Of a DNA stretch of 64,000 nt, positions 8,238 through 13,221 are shown piece after piece. Below the pieces are notes generated by a model. It did not search any database, was not told the origin of the DNA, and was given only the letters and a program-made list of their open reading frames with translations. Each line of letters begins with the position of its first letter. The stretch's first letter is position 1. The translations under genes and the position numbers were made by a program. The DNA is taken from NCBI RefSeq assembly GCF_055900595.2, contig NZ_CM148325.1. The stretch is one strand, 5' to 3'.

Positions 8238-8375
8238 CGTGTAATGGCTGCATGAAATAAACAATAAAATATAAATAACATTATCAGCCTGCCGACGGCT
8301 TGAAGAGAGTCACAGTATCTTGTGCAACATTATTGGAAAGAGTGAGGGGGCGAGGTAGCGAAGCGGAAAAATGTT

Positions 8376-8481
8376 AAAAAAAAGCCCATCGTGGGAGATG
8401 GGCAAAGACTACACACAGCAATTCGTTGTTTCACTCAGGGGATTTCCATGCTTATAAATCAATATGTTGATTTATAACCGT
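8376..8481 (-). ncRNA. rprA: RprA small regulatory RNA (rpoS translational activator)
   Basis: Minus-strand sequence ACGGUUAUAAAUCAACAUAUUGAUUUAUAAGCAUGGAAAUCCCCUGAGUGAAACAACGAAUUGCUGUGUGUAGUCUUUGCCCAUCUCCCACGAUGGGCUUUUUUUU recognised as RprA; ends in a GC hairpin plus U8 terminator; located between ydiK and ydiL. Confidence 0.9.
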
Positions 8482-8666: not shown

Positions 8667-9779
8667 TTACTTATTCGGTTTCTCGATTTCGCCAAGTTCT
8701 TCGAGAATTTCTTCCGGTTGATCCGTCGGCGGTGGGACCTCTTCCACCCACGCGGCAAACAGACGCCAGGAAACGGCTAACAGAACCGGACCAATAAACA
8801 GACCGATCATCCCGAAAGCAATCAAACCACCAATAACGCCAGAGAGGATCAGGATCAGCGGTAAATCGGCACCCATGCGAATTAACATTGGGCGGATGAC
8901 GTTATCCAGCGTGCCAACCACACCGCTCCACACTAACAATACCGTTCCCCAGGTGGTATCGCCGGTCCAGTAGAGCCAGATAATCGCCGGAATCAGTACC
9001 GGCAATGGGCCAAGCTGGACAAGGCAGGAGAGGATCATTAACACCGTGAGCAACGTTGCATAAGGTACGCCGGATACCGCGAGGCCGATACCACCAAGCA
9101 CTGCCTGTACTAACGCAGTCACCACAACACCCAGCGCCACTGCGCGGATAGCTTGTGCCGCTAGCAGCACGGCGGCATCTCCACGAACGCCTGCCAGACG
9201 GGTAGCAAAATGGCGAATGCCTTGCGCCACTTGTTCACCGCGCCAGTACAGCAGGGCGCTGAAGAGAAGCATCAGCGCACAATGCACCATAAAGCGCCCG
9301 ATATGCGCCGCCTGCCCAACGAACCAGGTGGTGGTGGTGCCAATATAAGGACGGACTTTCGCCATGATCGCCGTACCCCCCATATCCAGCAAGTTGTGCC
9401 AGCCTGCATATAGCTTCGCGCCAATCACCGGAATGGTATTAAGCCACGCCAGATCGGGTAACGTCATGTCACCGCTGGAAATAGCTTTAATAAGCGGGCC
9501 GCTGCCATCGACAATACTGTTAACCAACAAGGCAATAGGGATGATAAACACCATCACTAATAACAGCGTCATCACCAGAACGGCGAGAGAGCGGCGGCCA
9601 AACATTATCTTTTGCAAACGTAACAATACCGGCCAGGTGGCGATAACCACCGTACCGGCCCATGCAAAGCCGAGAATAAAGGGTTGAACAATCCACAGAC
9701 ATGCCACAATCATGATGGCTAAAAACAGCACCGAAAGCAGAATTTGTGCGACATCCCTGGGCTGACGAACATTTACCAT
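8667..9779 (-). CDS. ydiK: AI-2E/UPF0118 family inner-membrane transporter (370 aa)
   Basis: 370-aa multi-TM ORF; synteny. Confidence 0.85.
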   Translation of the reverse strand: MVNVRQPRDVAQILLSVLFLAIMIVACLWIVQPFILGFAWAGTVVIATWPVLLRLQKIMFGRRSLAVLVMTLLLVMVFIIPIALLVNSIVDGSGPLIKAISSGDMTLPDLAWLNTIPVIGAKLYAGWHNLLDMGGTAIMAKVRPYIGTTTTWFVGQAAHIGRFMVHCALMLLFSALLYWRGEQVAQGIRHFATRLAGVRGDAAVLLAAQAIRAVALGVVVTALVQAVLGGIGLAVSGVPYATLLTVLMILSCLVQLGPLPVLIPAIIWLYWTGDTTWGTVLLVWSGVVGTLDNVIRPMLIRMGADLPLILILSGVIGGLIAFGMIGLFIGPVLLAVSWRLFAAWVEEVPPPTDQPEEILEELGEIEKPNK

Positions 9780-9989
9780 AACTACTTTTCACCTTTTTTG
9801 TGCGTCAAATCGTCGACGCGACGTGAACACGCGAAACTCACCTGCATAATGATGAGCAATTTCAGCGGTTTTTAACAGGCCGATTCTGCCCTTAATTCTG
9901 ATGGGCGTGTTAGAAAAAAATGTGGTACAACAACTCAGGCAACACGCAAACGATTTACTCGTCGTATTTCAAATTGCATGTGCTGCGGC

Positions 9990-10075
9990 TACGTTCGTTC
10001 ACCCCAGTCACTTACTTTGTAAGCTCCTGGAGTTCACTCGCTTGCCGCCTTCCTGCAACTCGAAATCCATAGAGT
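9990..10075. repeat. Structured intergenic repeat-like element, possibly a box C-type repeat
   Basis: GC-rich segment cgttcaccccagtcacttactttgtaagctcctggagttcactcgcttgccgccttcctgcaactcgaaatcc with internal inverted repeat (cttac/gtaag); resembles an E. coli intergenic repeat family from memory; not verified. Confidence 0.3.
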
Positions 10076-10164
10076 AAACAAACATCACCTTTCAGTGCGC
10101 TATTAGCAGCCTGAAAGAACAGTGTATCGTTCTACATCACAGACCGCAGGAAAGGGTCAATATA

Positions 10165-13100
10165 ATGATTCCACAGATTTCCCAGGCACCCGGCGTCGTT
10201 CAATTGGTGCTTAATTTTTTGCAAGAGCTGGAGCAACAGGGTTTTACCGGCGATACGGCGACAAGTTATGCCGATCGTCTGACAATGTCGACCGACAACA
10301 GTATTTACCAACTTCTCCCCGATGCGGTGGTATTTCCGCGTTCAACCGCAGATGTGGCGCTGATCGCCCGTCTTGCCGCGCAGGAACGCTATTCATCGCT
10401 GATCTTTACCCCCCGCGGCGGCGGCACCGGCACTAACGGTCAGGCGCTCAACCAGGGGATTATTGTTGATATGTCCCGCCATATGAACCGCATCATCGAA
10501 ATTAACCCTGAAGAGGGCTGGGTGCGCGTTGAGGCCGGGGTGATAAAAGATCAACTCAATCAGTACCTGAAACCATTCGGCTACTTTTTTGCGCCGGAAC
10601 TTTCGACCAGCAACCGGGCAACGCTCGGTGGGATGATCAATACCGATGCATCCGGTCAGGGATCGCTGGTCTATGGCAAAACGTCAGATCACGTACTTGG
10701 CGTACGCGCGGTGTTGTTGGGGGGCGATATTCTCGATACGCAACCTTTACCCGTCGAACTGGCGGAAACGCTGGGTAAATCCAATACTACAATCGGGCGA
10801 ATTTATAACACGGTTTATCAACGTTGCCGTCAGCAACGCCAGTTAATTATCGACAAATTCCCCAAACTTAACCGTTTTCTGACGGGTTACGATCTGCGTC
10901 ATGTCTTTAACGATGAGATGACTGAGTTCGACCTGACGCGCATTCTGACGGGTTCAGAAGGGACGCTGGCCTTTATTACCGAAGCGCGGCTGGATATTAC
11001 GCCCTTGCCTAAAGTGCGCCGTCTGGTGAACGTCAAATATGACTCTTTTGACTCCGCGCTGCGTAACGCGCCGTTTATGGTTGAGGCGCGGGCGCTTTCG
11101 GTAGAGACGGTAGACTCAAAAGTGCTGAATCTGGCGCGGGAAGATATTGTCTGGCATTCCGTCAGCGAGTTGATTACCGATGTGCCTGACAAAGAAATGC
11201 TCGGGCTGAACATTGTGGAATTTGCTGGTGATGATGAGACGCTGATTGATGAGCGGGTAAATGCACTCTGTGCGCGGTTGGATGAACTGATTGCCAGCCA
11301 ACAGGCAGGTGTGATTGGCTGGCAGGTGTGCCGCGAACTGGCAGGTGTTGAGCGTATTTATGCCATGCGCAAAAAAGCCGTCGGCCTGCTCGGTAATGCC
11401 AAAGGAGCAGCCAAACCGATTCCGTTTGCTGAGGATACCTGCGTACCGCCGGAACATCTGGCGGATTATATTGCTGAATTTCGCGCGCTGCTCGACAGCC
11501 ACGGCTTAAGCTACGGTATGTTCGGTCACGTCGACGCAGGTGTCTTGCACGTCCGTCCGGCACTGGATATGTGCGATCCGCAACAAGAGATTTTGATGAA
11601 GCAAATCTCTGATGATGTAGTGGCGTTGACTGCGAAATACGGTGGTTTGTTGTGGGGCGAACATGGTAAAGGTTTTCGTGCCGAATACAGCCCGGCGTTT
11701 TTCGGTGAGGAACTTTTTGCAGAACTGCGCAAAGTGAAAGCGGCATTTGACCCGCATAACCGACTCAACCCAGGGAAGATTTGCCCGCCAGAAGGTCTCG
11801 ATGCGCCGATGATGAAAGTGGACGCGGTGAAGCGTGGCACATATGATCGACAGATCCCCATCGCGGTACGCCAGCAGTGGCGCGGGGCAATGGAGTGTAA
11901 TGGCAACGGTTTATGCTTCAACTTTGATGCCCGCAGTCCGATGTGCCCGTCGATGAAGATTACTCAGAACCGGATTCATTCACCGAAAGGACGCGCAACG
12001 CTGGTGCGTGAGTGGCTGCGTTTGTTGGCAGATCGCGGCGTTGACCCACTCAAACTGGAACAAGAACTGCCTGAATCCGGAGTCAGTTTGCGGACGTTAA
12101 TTGCCCGCACGCGCAATAGCTGGCATGCGAATAAAGGCGAATATGACTTCTCACACGAAGTCAAAGAGGCGATGTCGGGTTGCCTGGCCTGTAAAGCGTG
12201 TTCGACTCAGTGCCCCATCAAAATTGACGTGCCTGAGTTTCGTTCTCGCTTTCTGCAACTCTATCACACCCGTTATTTGCGCCCCCTGCGCGACCACCTC
12301 GTCGCCACGGTCGAGAGCTACGCACCGCTGATGGCTCGTGCACCGAAGACTTTTAACTTCTTCATTAACCAGCCGCTGGTGCGCAAACTCTCCGAAAAAC
12401 ATATCGGCATGGTTGATTTGCCGCTGCTGTCGGTTCCCTCGCTGCAACAACAAATGGTGGGGCATCGCTCGGCAAACATGACGCTGGAACAGCTTGAAGT
12501 TCTCAATGCAGAGCAGAAAGCGCGCACGGTGTTGGTGGTGCAGGACCCCTTTACCAGCTATTACGATGCGCAAGTGGTGGCGGATTTTGTCCGTCTGGTC
12601 GAAAAATTAGGTTTCCAGCCCGTGTTACTGCCATTTTCGCCGAATGGCAAAGCCCAGCATATCAAAGGCTTTCTTAATCGTTTTGCGAAGACGGCGAAAA
12701 AGACGGCGGATTTCCTCAACCGTGTGGCGAAGCTGGGGATGCCAATGGTGGGCGTCGATCCGGCGCTGGTACTTTGTTATCGCGATGAATATAAACTGGC
12801 GCTGGGCGAGGAACGTGGCGAGTTTAACGTCTTACTGGCGAATGAATGGCTGGCAAGCGCACTTGACTCACAGCCAGTGGCTACAGTCAGCGGTGAATCA
12901 TGGTATTTCTTTGGTCACTGTACCGAGGTTACCGCTTTGCCGGGCGCGCCAGCACAATGGGCTGCGATATTTGCCCGTTTTGGCGCGAAACTGGAAAATG
13001 TCAGCGTGGGTTGCTGCGGCATGGCAGGGACTTACGGACATGAAGCGAAAAATCATAAAAACTCGCTCGGGATCTATGAGTTATCCTGGCATCAGGCGAT

Positions 13101-13221
13101 GCAGCGACTGCCGCGTAACCGCTGTCTGGCGACCGGATATTCCTGTCGCGGCCAGGTAAAACGGGTTGAAGGCACGGGGGTACGCCATCCTGTGCAGGCT
13201 TTACTGGAGATTATTAAATGA
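10165..13221 (+). CDS. ydiJ: large FAD-linked oxidase fused to Fe-S/CCG domains (1018 aa)
   Basis: 1018-aa ORF; N-terminal FAD-binding oxidase region, C-terminal ferredoxin-like CLACKACSTQCP and GCCGMAG motifs; ATGA overlap with menI. Confidence 0.9.
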   Translation: MIPQISQAPGVVQLVLNFLQELEQQGFTGDTATSYADRLTMSTDNSIYQLLPDAVVFPRSTADVALIARLAAQERYSSLIFTPRGGGTGTNGQALNQGIIVDMSRHMNRIIEINPEEGWVRVEAGVIKDQLNQYLKPFGYFFAPELSTSNRATLGGMINTDASGQGSLVYGKTSDHVLGVRAVLLGGDILDTQPLPVELAETLGKSNTTIGRIYNTVYQRCRQQRQLIIDKFPKLNRFLTGYDLRHVFNDEMTEFDLTRILTGSEGTLAFITEARLDITPLPKVRRLVNVKYDSFDSALRNAPFMVEARALSVETVDSKVLNLAREDIVWHSVSELITDVPDKEMLGLNIVEFAGDDETLIDERVNALCARLDELIASQQAGVIGWQVCRELAGVERIYAMRKKAVGLLGNAKGAAKPIPFAEDTCVPPEHLADYIAEFRALLDSHGLSYGMFGHVDAGVLHVRPALDMCDPQQEILMKQISDDVVALTAKYGGLLWGEHGKGFRAEYSPAFFGEELFAELRKVKAAFDPHNRLNPGKICPPEGLDAPMMKVDAVKRGTYDRQIPIAVRQQWRGAMECNGNGLCFNFDARSPMCPSMKITQNRIHSPKGRATLVREWLRLLADRGVDPLKLEQELPESGVSLRTLIARTRNSWHANKGEYDFSHEVKEAMSGCLACKACSTQCPIKIDVPEFRSRFLQLYHTRYLRPLRDHLVATVESYAPLMARAPKTFNFFINQPLVRKLSEKHIGMVDLPLLSVPSLQQQMVGHRSANMTLEQLEVLNAEQKARTVLVVQDPFTSYYDAQVVADFVRLVEKLGFQPVLLPFSPNGKAQHIKGFLNRFAKTAKKTADFLNRVAKLGMPMVGVDPALVLCYRDEYKLALGEERGEFNVLLANEWLASALDSQPVATVSGESWYFFGHCTEVTALPGAPAQWAAIFARFGAKLENVSVGCCGMAGTYGHEAKNHKNSLGIYELSWHQAMQRLPRNRCLATGYSCRGQVKRVEGTGVRHPVQALLEIIK

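What the first reader, a model, noticed from the sequence alone, without database searches (positions are those of the whole stretch)
9990..10120. Repeat-like structured element and leader hairpin in the ydiK-ydiJ divergent intergenic region
The 385-bp region contains a GC-rich block (ccccagtcacttactttgtaagctcctggagttcactcgcttgccgccttcctgcaactcgaa) that I associate with a dispersed E. coli intergenic repeat family (possibly box C), followed by a 7-bp inverted repeat ctttcag-N13-ctgaaag in the presumptive ydiJ leader. Neither fits a promoter, so they may be a dispersed repeat or a cis-regulatory RNA structure.
Basis: inference. Interest (0 to 1): 0.3.

Follow-up and report, generated by a model that had tools for sequence, protein, structure and literature searches.

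The report
ERIC repeat in ydiJ leader
The flagged block is part of an ordinary copy of ERIC, a long-known 127-bp mobile palindromic repeat of enterobacteria, sitting with a small strain-variable hairpin just upstream of the ydiJ gene; it is not box C, and nothing shows it is a dedicated regulatory RNA.

Summary
The quoted sequence is real (window 10002-10064). It is only the right-hand part of a complete ERIC/IRU element at 9954-10078. That element aligns end to end with the published 127-nt E. coli ERIC (RU-1) consensus (81% identity; 86% to the Salmonella reference copy). It carries the ERIC2 and ERIC1R primer sites, has terminal inverted repeats and folds into a long hairpin. It recurs at a median of 12 places per genome in 5,426 complete E. 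coli genomes. "Dispersed repeat" is therefore right and "box C" is wrong.

The 7-bp inverted repeat also exists (10089-10095 / 10111-10117), but its spacer is 15 nt, not 13. It lies in a single-copy 59-bp segment (10079-10137). That segment is found in exactly the 4,255 genomes (78%) that carry the ERIC here. The other genomes have a 213-bp intergenic region lacking both, matching in length that of most of the Citrobacter species sampled. E. albertii has both. The stem varies without compensation.

Most likely this is a selfish MITE plus adjacent lineage-specific DNA, inserted into the ydiJ 5' leader next to a conserved operator-like motif. That spot has taken palindromic insertions in at least nine other lineages. 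Any effect on ydiJ mRNA stability or translation is inferred, not shown. The element belongs to an already known family, so interest is low.

The parts
9954..10078 (+). Complete ERIC / IRU (RU-1) element, 125 bp, in the orientation of the published consensus on the + strand. Boundaries are good to about 2 nt.
   Evidence: Global alignment with the published 127-nt E. coli RU-1 consensus gives 103/127 identical; with SeRU-1, 109/127 (consensus sequences from PMC2759123 Table 1a). There is a median of 12 places per E. coli genome.
9954..9978 (.). Left terminal inverted repeat of the ERIC (TTTACTCGTCGTATTTCAAATTGCA).
   Evidence: the repeat finder pair I1: 25-nt arms, 76% complementary, 75 nt apart.
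10054..10078 (.). Right terminal inverted repeat of the ERIC (TGCAACTCGAAATCCATAGAGTAAA).
   Evidence: the repeat finder pair I1.
9996..10017 (-). ERIC2 PCR-primer site (21 of 22 bases).
   Evidence: The primer sequence and name were confirmed in bioRxiv 10.1101/2020.06.30.180257.
10018..10037 (+). ERIC1R PCR-primer site (19 of the 21 aligned primer bases match, with one mismatch and a one-base gap).
   Evidence: Local alignment.
10002..10064 (+).
   Evidence: Exact string match.
10079..10137 (+). Single-copy, Escherichia-specific segment that always accompanies the ERIC at this locus. Together the two form one 173-bp indel relative to the short allele.
   Evidence: Found in 4,255 of 5,426 genomes, one place each, the same number of genomes as carry the full-length 385-bp region. 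Absent from the short allele. No allele with only the ERIC or only this segment was found in metagenome scans.
10089..10117 (+).
   Evidence: (pair I3). Folding the 37-nt stretch 10085-10121 that contains it gives -13.1 kcal/mol, z = -4.5. Natural variants A>G (G-U wobble, E. albertii) and A>T (mismatch, strain Tig207) occur without compensation.
9944..9955 (+). Conserved motif ACGCAAACGATT that abuts the insertion point. It is operator-like (this reading is an inference).
   Evidence: Kept with at most 2 mismatches in most of 80 Enterobacterales ydiJ leaders and invariant in all Escherichia alleles sampled.
10138..10164 (+). Conserved ydiJ ribosome-binding region (CACAGACCGCAGGAAAGGGTCAATATA) immediately before the ATG at 10165.
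   Evidence: Identical in long and short alleles and in Salmonella; Citrobacter differs only in the last few bases before the ATG (CACTATA, or a shortened CAATA).

Best explanation
Window 9954-10078 is a full-length copy of ERIC (enterobacterial repetitive intergenic consensus; also called IRU or RU-1), a non-autonomous miniature inverted-repeat transposable element. It sits in the divergent ydiK-ydiJ intergenic region, 87 nt upstream of the ydiJ start codon. Directly 3' of it is a 59-bp single-copy segment containing the small hairpin. In every genome examined, the ERIC and this segment are present together or absent together. The short allele (213-bp intergenic region) matches in length and layout what most Citrobacter species have, so it represents the ancestral layout. 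The long allele arose by insertion in the Escherichia lineage. It is now carried by about 78% of sequenced E. coli (including K-12 and O157:H7) and by E. albertii.

In the ancestral layout only 37 nt separate the insertion point from the ATG. The ydiJ promoter must therefore lie upstream of the insertion, so the ERIC and the hairpin are most likely transcribed as part of a lengthened ydiJ 5' UTR. In that orientation the ERIC forms the weaker of its two possible RNA hairpins. The element is best seen as a selfish or neutral passenger. By analogy with ERIC copies studied in Yersinia, it may alter mRNA stability. Its CCUUCCUGC stretch could also pair with the ydiJ Shine-Dalgarno region. Neither effect has been shown here.

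Shown: identity, boundaries, copy number, polymorphism and taxonomic distribution. Inferred: position in the 5' UTR and any effect on expression.
For: Identity:
- End-to-end alignment with the published consensus gives 81% identity, and 86% to SeRU-1.
- The ERIC2 site matches 21/22 bases, and ERIC1R matches 19 of its 21 aligned bases with one gap.
- There are 25-nt terminal inverted repeats.
- The long hairpin folds at -55.2 kcal/mol (z = -9.3) on the minus strand and -33.5 kcal/mol (z = -3.9) on the plus strand.
- 8 of 29 consensus pairs show compensatory changes across family members from Escherichia, Salmonella, Yersinia and Buttiauxella.
- It is dispersed: 58,367 places in 5,425 genomes, median 12 per genome, and 15 in the genome identical to the window.

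Polymorphism:
- 4,255 of 5,426 genomes carry the full region, while the short allele lacks both parts.
- The hairpin segment is present in 4,255 genomes, the same count, as a single copy.
- K-12 MG1655 carries the long allele.

Ancestral state:
- The ydiK-ydiJ arrangement and a 40-54 nt distance from the conserved motif to the ATG hold across most Enterobacterales sampled. Only E. coli and E. albertii have ERIC plus hairpin here.

General properties of ERIC (MITE, TA target, co-transcription, an effect on mRNA decay through RNase E) come from PMC3184786 and PMC2759123.
Against: - No transcription start site or expression data for ydiJ were found, so placement in the 5' UTR rests on geometry and conservation only.
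- The simple promoter scan found no sigma-70-like site anywhere in the region.
- The terminal TA dinucleotides of the consensus read TT and AA in this copy. Because the hairpin segment co-varies with the ERIC, a clean TA target-site duplication cannot be reconstructed.
- The origin of the 59-bp hairpin segment is unresolved. Its ends weakly resemble the Salmonella arizonae leader, but the overall alignment score is not significant (407 of 2,000 shuffles reached it).
- The predicted pairing between the ERIC and the Shine-Dalgarno region is only 7 bp, about what chance allows, and the whole-leader fold has z = -2.5.
Confidence: 0.88

Rival explanations
1. The ERIC plus hairpin is a selected cis-regulatory leader for ydiJ (D-2-hydroxyglutarate dehydrogenase). 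In this view the ERIC right arm (UUCCUGC, 10050-10056) sequesters the Shine-Dalgarno sequence (GCAGGAA, 10145-10151), and the hairpin helps set the fold, so translation or mRNA decay is tuned.
For: The minimum-free-energy fold of 9940-10185 pairs 10050-10056 with 10145-10151 and encloses the hairpin; the repeat finder pair I2 reports the same complementarity. The long allele is the majority allele and is shared with E. albertii. ERIC copies affect mRNA decay in Yersinia, as summarised in PMC3184786.
Against: 22% of E. coli and all other genera sampled lack it. The hairpin segment varies at 10 of 61 columns, while its flanks vary at 0 of 44, although the alleles were chosen for their diversity in this segment. 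One natural allele breaks a stem pair and no compensatory change was seen. The complementarity is only 7 bp, and the CCTTCCTGC stretch also occurs in the Salmonella reference copy SeRU-1 (the E. coli consensus reads CCTTGCTGC), so it is not special to this locus. The leader fold has z = -2.5 only. No Rfam family matched.
Confidence: 0.07
2. The block is a box C (or RSA, or REP/BIME) element.
For: The block is mildly GC-rich (54%) and intergenic.
Against: The whole 125 bp, including the quoted block, is accounted for base by base by the published ERIC consensus and the ERIC primers. I found no box C consensus in the paper library, so no direct comparison was made.
Confidence: 0.01
3. The region encodes a small RNA or antisense RNA of its own, by analogy with the Rfam families Vibrio AS5 and Yersinia Ysr49, which matched it.
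For: Matches on the minus strand to RF02818 (38.2 bits, E = 5e-6) and RF02766 (32.4 bits, E = 9e-4). The minus-strand RNA folds very stably.
Against: Both scores are far below the gathering thresholds (96 and 95 bits). The matches simply cover the ERIC palindrome, so they indicate that those families are ERIC-like, not that this copy is an sRNA gene. No promoter-like or terminator-like site flanks it. Nothing was reported here in the 3'-end mapping supplement that was searched.
Confidence: 0.03
4. The short allele is derived, not ancestral. In this view the ancestor of E. coli had ERIC plus hairpin, and B2-type lineages lost both in one deletion or by recombination with a donor lacking them.
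For: E. albertii, an outgroup to E. coli, carries the long allele. Direct repeats ACATCAC flank most of the hairpin segment (family D3).
Against: The short allele's intergenic region is 213 bp, the same length as in most of the Citrobacter species sampled. It retains a 10-nt stretch (AATCTCTCAT) that aligns with Citrobacter AAATTCACAA rather than looking like a deletion scar. Either history leaves the identification of the element unchanged.
Confidence: 0.25

Closest known systems
ERIC / IRU (RU-1) elements of Enterobacteriaceae (Sharples & Lloyd 1990; Hulton et al. 1991; Wilson & Sharp 2006; as cited in PMC3184786 and PMC2759123)
   Same: Length (125 vs 127 bp), sequence over the whole unit (81-86% identity), terminal inverted repeats, a long imperfect palindrome with compensatory variation, intergenic position, multiple dispersed copies per genome, ERIC-PCR primer sites, and presence/absence polymorphism between strains.
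   Different: Nothing of substance. The outermost TA of each end reads TT / AA in this copy. A 59-bp single-copy segment with its own hairpin is always attached at its right side at this locus.
ERIC copies in Yersinia mRNAs (De Gregorio et al. 2005, as summarised in PMC3184786)
   Same: An ERIC co-transcribed with a neighbouring gene and able to fold into a long RNA hairpin. This is the proposed basis for any effect here.
   Different: The reported effect concerns ERICs downstream of genes, which create an RNase E site and destabilise the upstream mRNA. Here the element lies upstream of ydiJ, in its presumed 5' UTR, and no effect has been measured.
Other bacterial MITEs in leaders and UTRs (Correia/NEMIS of Neisseria, RUP of Streptococcus pneumoniae; Table 1 of PMC3184786)
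   Same: Small non-autonomous palindromic insertions with terminal inverted repeats, often co-transcribed, and sometimes affecting expression.
   Different: These are unrelated sequence families in unrelated hosts.
Box C, RSA and REP/BIME repeats of E. coli
   Same: They are dispersed intergenic repeats of E. coli.
   Different: They are different sequence families. The block here is fully explained by ERIC. REP units are about 35 bp and box C about 56 bp (sizes partly from memory), not a 127-bp palindrome.

Membership tests
ERIC / IRU (RU-1) | Sequence similarity to the ~127-bp consensus over its whole length | tested here: met
   103/127 identical to the E. coli consensus and 109/127 to SeRU-1, with no terminal overhang (consensus sequences from PMC2759123).
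ERIC / IRU (RU-1) | Imperfect palindrome with terminal inverted repeats, folding into one long hairpin | tested here: met
   25-nt terminal inverted repeats. Folds at -55.2 kcal/mol (z = -9.3) and -33.5 kcal/mol (z = -3.9) on the two strands. 8 of 29 pairs are compensated across 8 family members.
ERIC / IRU (RU-1) | Multiple dispersed copies in the same genome | tested here: met
   Median 12 and maximum 19 places per genome at E <= 1e-3 in 5,425 E. coli genomes; 15 in the genome identical to the window. The 64-kb window holds only this copy.
ERIC / IRU (RU-1) | ERIC-PCR primer sites ERIC1R and ERIC2 back to back in the central region | tested here: met
   ERIC2 matches 21/22 bases at 9996-10017 on the minus strand. 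ERIC1R matches 19 of its 21 aligned bases, with one mismatch and a one-base gap, on the plus strand. Primer sequences confirmed.
ERIC / IRU (RU-1) | Extragenic location | tested here: met
   It lies wholly within the 385-bp ydiK-ydiJ intergenic region.
ERIC / IRU (RU-1) | TA at both termini and TA target-site duplication | tested here: inconclusive
   The inner TA...TA is present (9956-9957, 10075-10076), but the outermost consensus TA reads TT / AA. The empty allele has GATTAATC at the site. The co-varying hairpin segment prevents an exact reconstruction.
ERIC / IRU (RU-1) | Lies in a transcribed region (co-transcribed with a flanking gene) | not testable with these tools
   No transcription start site or RNA data for the ydiJ leader were found. 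The inference rests only on the 37-nt distance from the insertion point to the ATG in the empty allele.
Box C repeat | Similarity to the box C consensus (~56 bp, GC-rich) | not tested
   No box C consensus could be retrieved from the library. The block is fully accounted for by ERIC, which makes box C membership untenable.
Rfam RF02818 (V_AS5) and RF02766 (Ysr49) | Covariance-model score at or above the family's gathering threshold | tested here: not met
   38.2 bits against 96, and 32.4 bits against 95.
Conserved cis-regulatory leader RNA (for the 10089-10117 hairpin) | Conservation across orthologous leaders, with covariation supporting the stem | tested here: not met
   Absent from the short E. 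coli allele and from all non-Escherichia leaders. Variants are a G-U wobble (E. albertii) and a U-U mismatch (Tig207), with no double change. No Rfam match at E <= 1.

The most novel reading that the evidence does not exclude
The ydiJ leader, just 3' of a deeply conserved operator-like motif (ACGCAAACGAT), may be a recurrent landing site for palindromic mobile DNA across Enterobacterales. In Escherichia the resulting ERIC-plus-hairpin leader may have been co-opted to tune D-2-hydroxyglutarate dehydrogenase expression. If so, the natural long/short polymorphism (78% vs 22% of E. coli) would cause a heritable expression difference between phylogroups.
Probability: 0.08. Interest if true: 0.35.

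Novelty: already known. Interest (0 to 1): 0.1.

Why it matters
It matters little. ERIC elements have been known since 1990-91 and are the basis of ERIC-PCR typing. This copy is also present in K-12, although the RefSeq records examined do not annotate it.

The practical value is in correct labelling. The element is ERIC, not box C, and the adjacent hairpin is not a repeat.

The locus is also a clean natural presence/absence polymorphism in the leader of a gene with a recently assigned function (ydiJ, D-2-hydroxyglutarate dehydrogenase, per the RefSeq product name). It could serve as a convenient test case for whether a MITE in a 5' UTR changes expression.

Tried and rejected
- Box C identity was rejected, because the ERIC consensus explains every base of the block. 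A literature search for a box C consensus returned nothing.
- Rfam gave no family at threshold. The sub-threshold V_AS5 and Ysr49 hits merely reflect the ERIC palindrome.
- The idea that the hairpin segment is itself a repeat, or came from the flank of another ERIC copy, was rejected because it is single-copy in E. coli.
- I searched for intermediate alleles to order the two insertion events. There were none among the 5,426 genomes (identical counts). Two metagenome scans for a hairpin-only or an ERIC-only leader also found none.
- Homology between the hairpin segment and the Salmonella arizonae or Citrobacter R56 leader inserts was tested. The global alignment scores are not above shuffles (407 of 2,000 and 1,617 of 2,000), so only the short end similarities remain, as a hint.
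- The promoter/terminator scan found no sigma-70-like site in 9700-10250 and one chance-level terminator-like site inside ydiJ.
- Searches for ydiJ transcription start site or 3'-end data, and for a PurR-ydiJ link, found nothing usable.
- Wilson & Sharp 2006 and De Gregorio et al. 2005 are not held in the library. I could not confirm that this locus is in their tables, and I cite their findings only through reviews.

Full report
**Setting.** The window is E. coli. ydiK lies on the minus strand (8667-9779) and ydiJ on the plus strand (10165-13221), leaving a 385-bp divergent intergenic region at 9780-10164. The region is 100% identical to strain 2017-02-2CC, whose RefSeq record names the flanking genes ydiK (AI-2E family transporter) and ydiJ (D-2-hydroxyglutarate dehydrogenase) and annotates nothing between them. 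The K-12 MG1655 record is likewise empty there. rprA lies downstream of ydiK (8374-8481, minus strand).

**Checking the observation.** The quoted 63-nt block is present verbatim at 10002-10064, with 54% G+C against 50% for the window. The inverted repeat CTTTCAG/CTGAAAG is at 10089-10095 and 10111-10117, with 15 nt between the arms rather than 13. A bare 7-bp inverted repeat of this kind turns up in 29% of shuffled versions of the intergenic region. The fuller stem gives -13.1 kcal/mol with z = -4.5, but for a segment chosen after the fact.

**What the block is.** The block is the loop and right arm of a larger palindrome.
- The repeat finder reports 25-nt terminal inverted arms at 9954-9978 and 10054-10078.
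- The 125-bp unit folds into one long hairpin: -55.2 kcal/mol (z = -9.3) as minus-strand RNA and -33.5 kcal/mol (z = -3.9) as plus-strand RNA.
- I recognised the ERIC-PCR primer sequences and then checked them. The two primers occur together in 246 papers, and one paper names them ERIC1R and ERIC2.
- ERIC2 matches 9996-10017 on the minus strand at 21 of 22 bases, with 0.00 matches expected in shuffles. ERIC1R aligns on the plus strand with 19 of its 21 aligned bases identical, one mismatch and a one-base gap.
- Delihas 2007 (PMC2759123, Table 1a) prints the 127-nt E. coli ERIC (RU-1) consensus of Wilson & Sharp and a Salmonella reference copy. Window 9954-10078 aligns with them end to end at 103/127 and 109/127 identical positions.
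- In an alignment with copies from K-12, E. albertii, two Yersinia species and Buttiauxella, 8 of 29 consensus pairs show compensatory double changes.
- The element is dispersed: 58,367 places in 5,425 of 5,426 complete E. coli genomes, median 12 and maximum 19 per genome, with 15 in the genome identical to the window. The 64-kb window holds only this copy.

This is an ERIC/IRU element, not box C. The Rfam matches to Vibrio AS5 and Yersinia Ysr49 are far below threshold and simply cover the ERIC palindrome.

**The hairpin segment.** The 59-bp segment after the ERIC (10079-10137), which contains the flagged hairpin, is single-copy. It is present in 4,255 of 5,426 genomes, one place each. That is the same number of genomes as hold the full 385-bp region.

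The remaining genomes have a 213-bp intergenic region in which ...ACGCAAACGATT is followed by AATCTCTCAT and then CACAGACCGCAGGAAAGGG. They lack both the ERIC and the hairpin segment. These genomes include O25:H4 strains and the type strain JCM 5491. No ERIC-only or hairpin-only allele appeared among these genomes or in two metagenome scans designed to find them. At this locus the two features therefore behave as one 173-bp indel.

Among seven long alleles, the hairpin segment varies at 10 of 61 columns and the ERIC at 11 of 126. The 44 flanking columns do not vary at all. This sample was chosen for diversity in the hairpin segment, so the contrast is overstated. Stem changes are A>G in E. albertii (a G-U wobble) and A>T in strain Tig207 (a mismatch), and neither is compensated. 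Nothing supports a conserved RNA structure.

**Evolutionary context.** A scan of species-representative genomes returned 80 loci with the same divergent ydiK-ydiJ arrangement.
- A motif ACGCAAACGAT(T/A)A, at window 9944-9956, is kept in most of these loci. It normally lies 40-54 nt before the ydiJ ATG.
- Most Citrobacter species have a 213-bp intergenic region, the same length as the short E. coli allele, with a similar junction. The short allele therefore looks like the ancestral layout.
- Only E. coli and E. albertii carry ERIC plus hairpin (motif to ATG = 224 nt).
- The same spot has expanded independently in at least nine other lineages: Citrobacter R56/Awk4, Salmonella arizonae, Pseudocitrobacter, Kluyvera, Lelliottia, Siccibacter, Pluralibacter, C. 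freundii M-21 and Buttiauxella noackiae.
- Most of these inserts fold into hairpins. The Buttiauxella noackiae insert is an internally deleted ERIC in the opposite orientation, with 33 of 39 bases identical to the end of the reverse-complemented consensus.

The ydiJ leader thus appears to be a recurrent target for palindromic insertions. This is consistent with the TA-rich target (GATTAA or GATAAC) and with the reported TA preference of ERIC (PMC2759123, PMC3184786).

**How it most likely works.**
- Shown: identity, boundaries, copy number, polymorphism and distribution.
- Inferred (position in the mRNA): in the ancestral layout only 37 nt separate the insertion point from the ATG, too little for a promoter plus a leader with a ribosome-binding site. 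The ydiJ promoter must therefore lie upstream. A conserved AAATGTGAT(A/C)AAAC block at 9918-9931 resembles an extended -10 element, which would place the start near 9938-9940. On that reading the ERIC and the hairpin are transcribed as part of a 5' UTR lengthened from about 50 nt to about 225 nt.
- Inferred (effect): the plus-strand transcript contains the weaker-folding orientation of the ERIC. In the predicted fold of 9940-10185, the ERIC stretch UUCCUGC (10050-10056) pairs with GCAGGAA of the Shine-Dalgarno region (10145-10151). That is only 7 bp, and the fold has z = -2.5.
- Background: reviews report that ERIC copies co-transcribed with genes in Yersinia alter mRNA decay through RNase E (PMC3184786).

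I conclude that this is a selfish or neutral MITE insertion that may modestly affect ydiJ mRNA. No evidence points to a dedicated function, and its absence from 22% of E. coli argues against an essential one. No transcription start site or expression data could be found, and the simple promoter scan was negative.

**Unresolved.** The origin of the 59-bp hairpin segment is open. It could be an older lineage-specific leader, a second small palindromic insertion, or DNA that arrived with the ERIC. Its ends weakly resemble the Salmonella arizonae leader, but the alignment is not significant. Whether B2-type strains retained the ancestral state or lost the insert also remains open, because E. albertii carries the long allele.

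**Verdict.** This is a known repeat family at a locus also present in K-12. Novelty: already known. Interest: low.

Noticed in passing
window 9944-9956 (and 9918-9931): The motif ACGCAAACGAT(T/A)A directly abuts the ERIC insertion point and is kept, with at most 2 mismatches, in most of 80 Enterobacterales ydiJ leaders. In Pantoea, Erwinia and Mixta it reads ACGCAAACGTTTAC. From memory it resembles the left half of a PurR / LacI-family operator. The insertion replaces the bases that would form the distal part of its right half. A second conserved block, AAATGTGAT(A/C)AAAC, just upstream looks like an extended -10 element. No paper linking PurR to ydiJ was found.
   Followed up: partly
loci L006, L008, L029, L035, L038, L041, L042, L044, L046, L049, L051, L070 (about 40-180 nt before the ydiJ ATG at 2501): The same spot in the ydiJ leader has taken independent insertions of 30-180 nt in at least nine other lineages. 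Most of them fold as hairpins (for example about 90 nt in Citrobacter R56/Awk4, and about 55 nt in Lelliottia and Kluyvera). The site appears to be an insertion hot spot for palindromic DNA.
   Followed up: partly
L046 about 2415-2480 (Buttiauxella noackiae): An internally deleted ERIC (about 65 bp) sits in the ydiJ leader in the opposite orientation to the E. coli copy, so it is a separate insertion event. It is absent from the sister species Buttiauxella sp. B2 (L047). The insert begins and ends with TA, and a further TA follows its right end.
   Followed up: partly
window 9958-10079 and 9915-10079, minus strand: Rfam families RF02818 (Vibrio AS5) and RF02766 (Yersinia Ysr49) match the ERIC at 38 and 32 bits, well below their thresholds. 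This suggests those 'sRNA' families are themselves ERIC-derived transcripts.
   Followed up: no
window 8374-8481, minus strand: The RprA small RNA gene (Rfam RF00034, 118.5 bits, full length) lies downstream of ydiK, as in K-12.
   Followed up: yes
window 10104-10105 and 10130-10131: The window's version of the hairpin segment lacks the GC dinucleotide in the loop and has TT instead of AC. This version is rare: only 22 of 4,255 genomes are at least 95% identical to it over 10077-10145, and most are 90-95% identical.
   Followed up: partly
window 9901-10077 and 9920-10072, plus strand: Two mechanical ORFs (58 and 50 aa) run through the ERIC. Delihas 2007 noted that ERIC units carry open reading frames. 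Nothing suggests these are genes, and both would be disrupted in the short allele.
   Followed up: no
window 10192-10211, plus strand: A terminator-like hairpin with a T-run lies about 30 nt inside the ydiJ coding sequence. Its count is at chance level in the scan (1 found against 0.6 expected).
   Followed up: no
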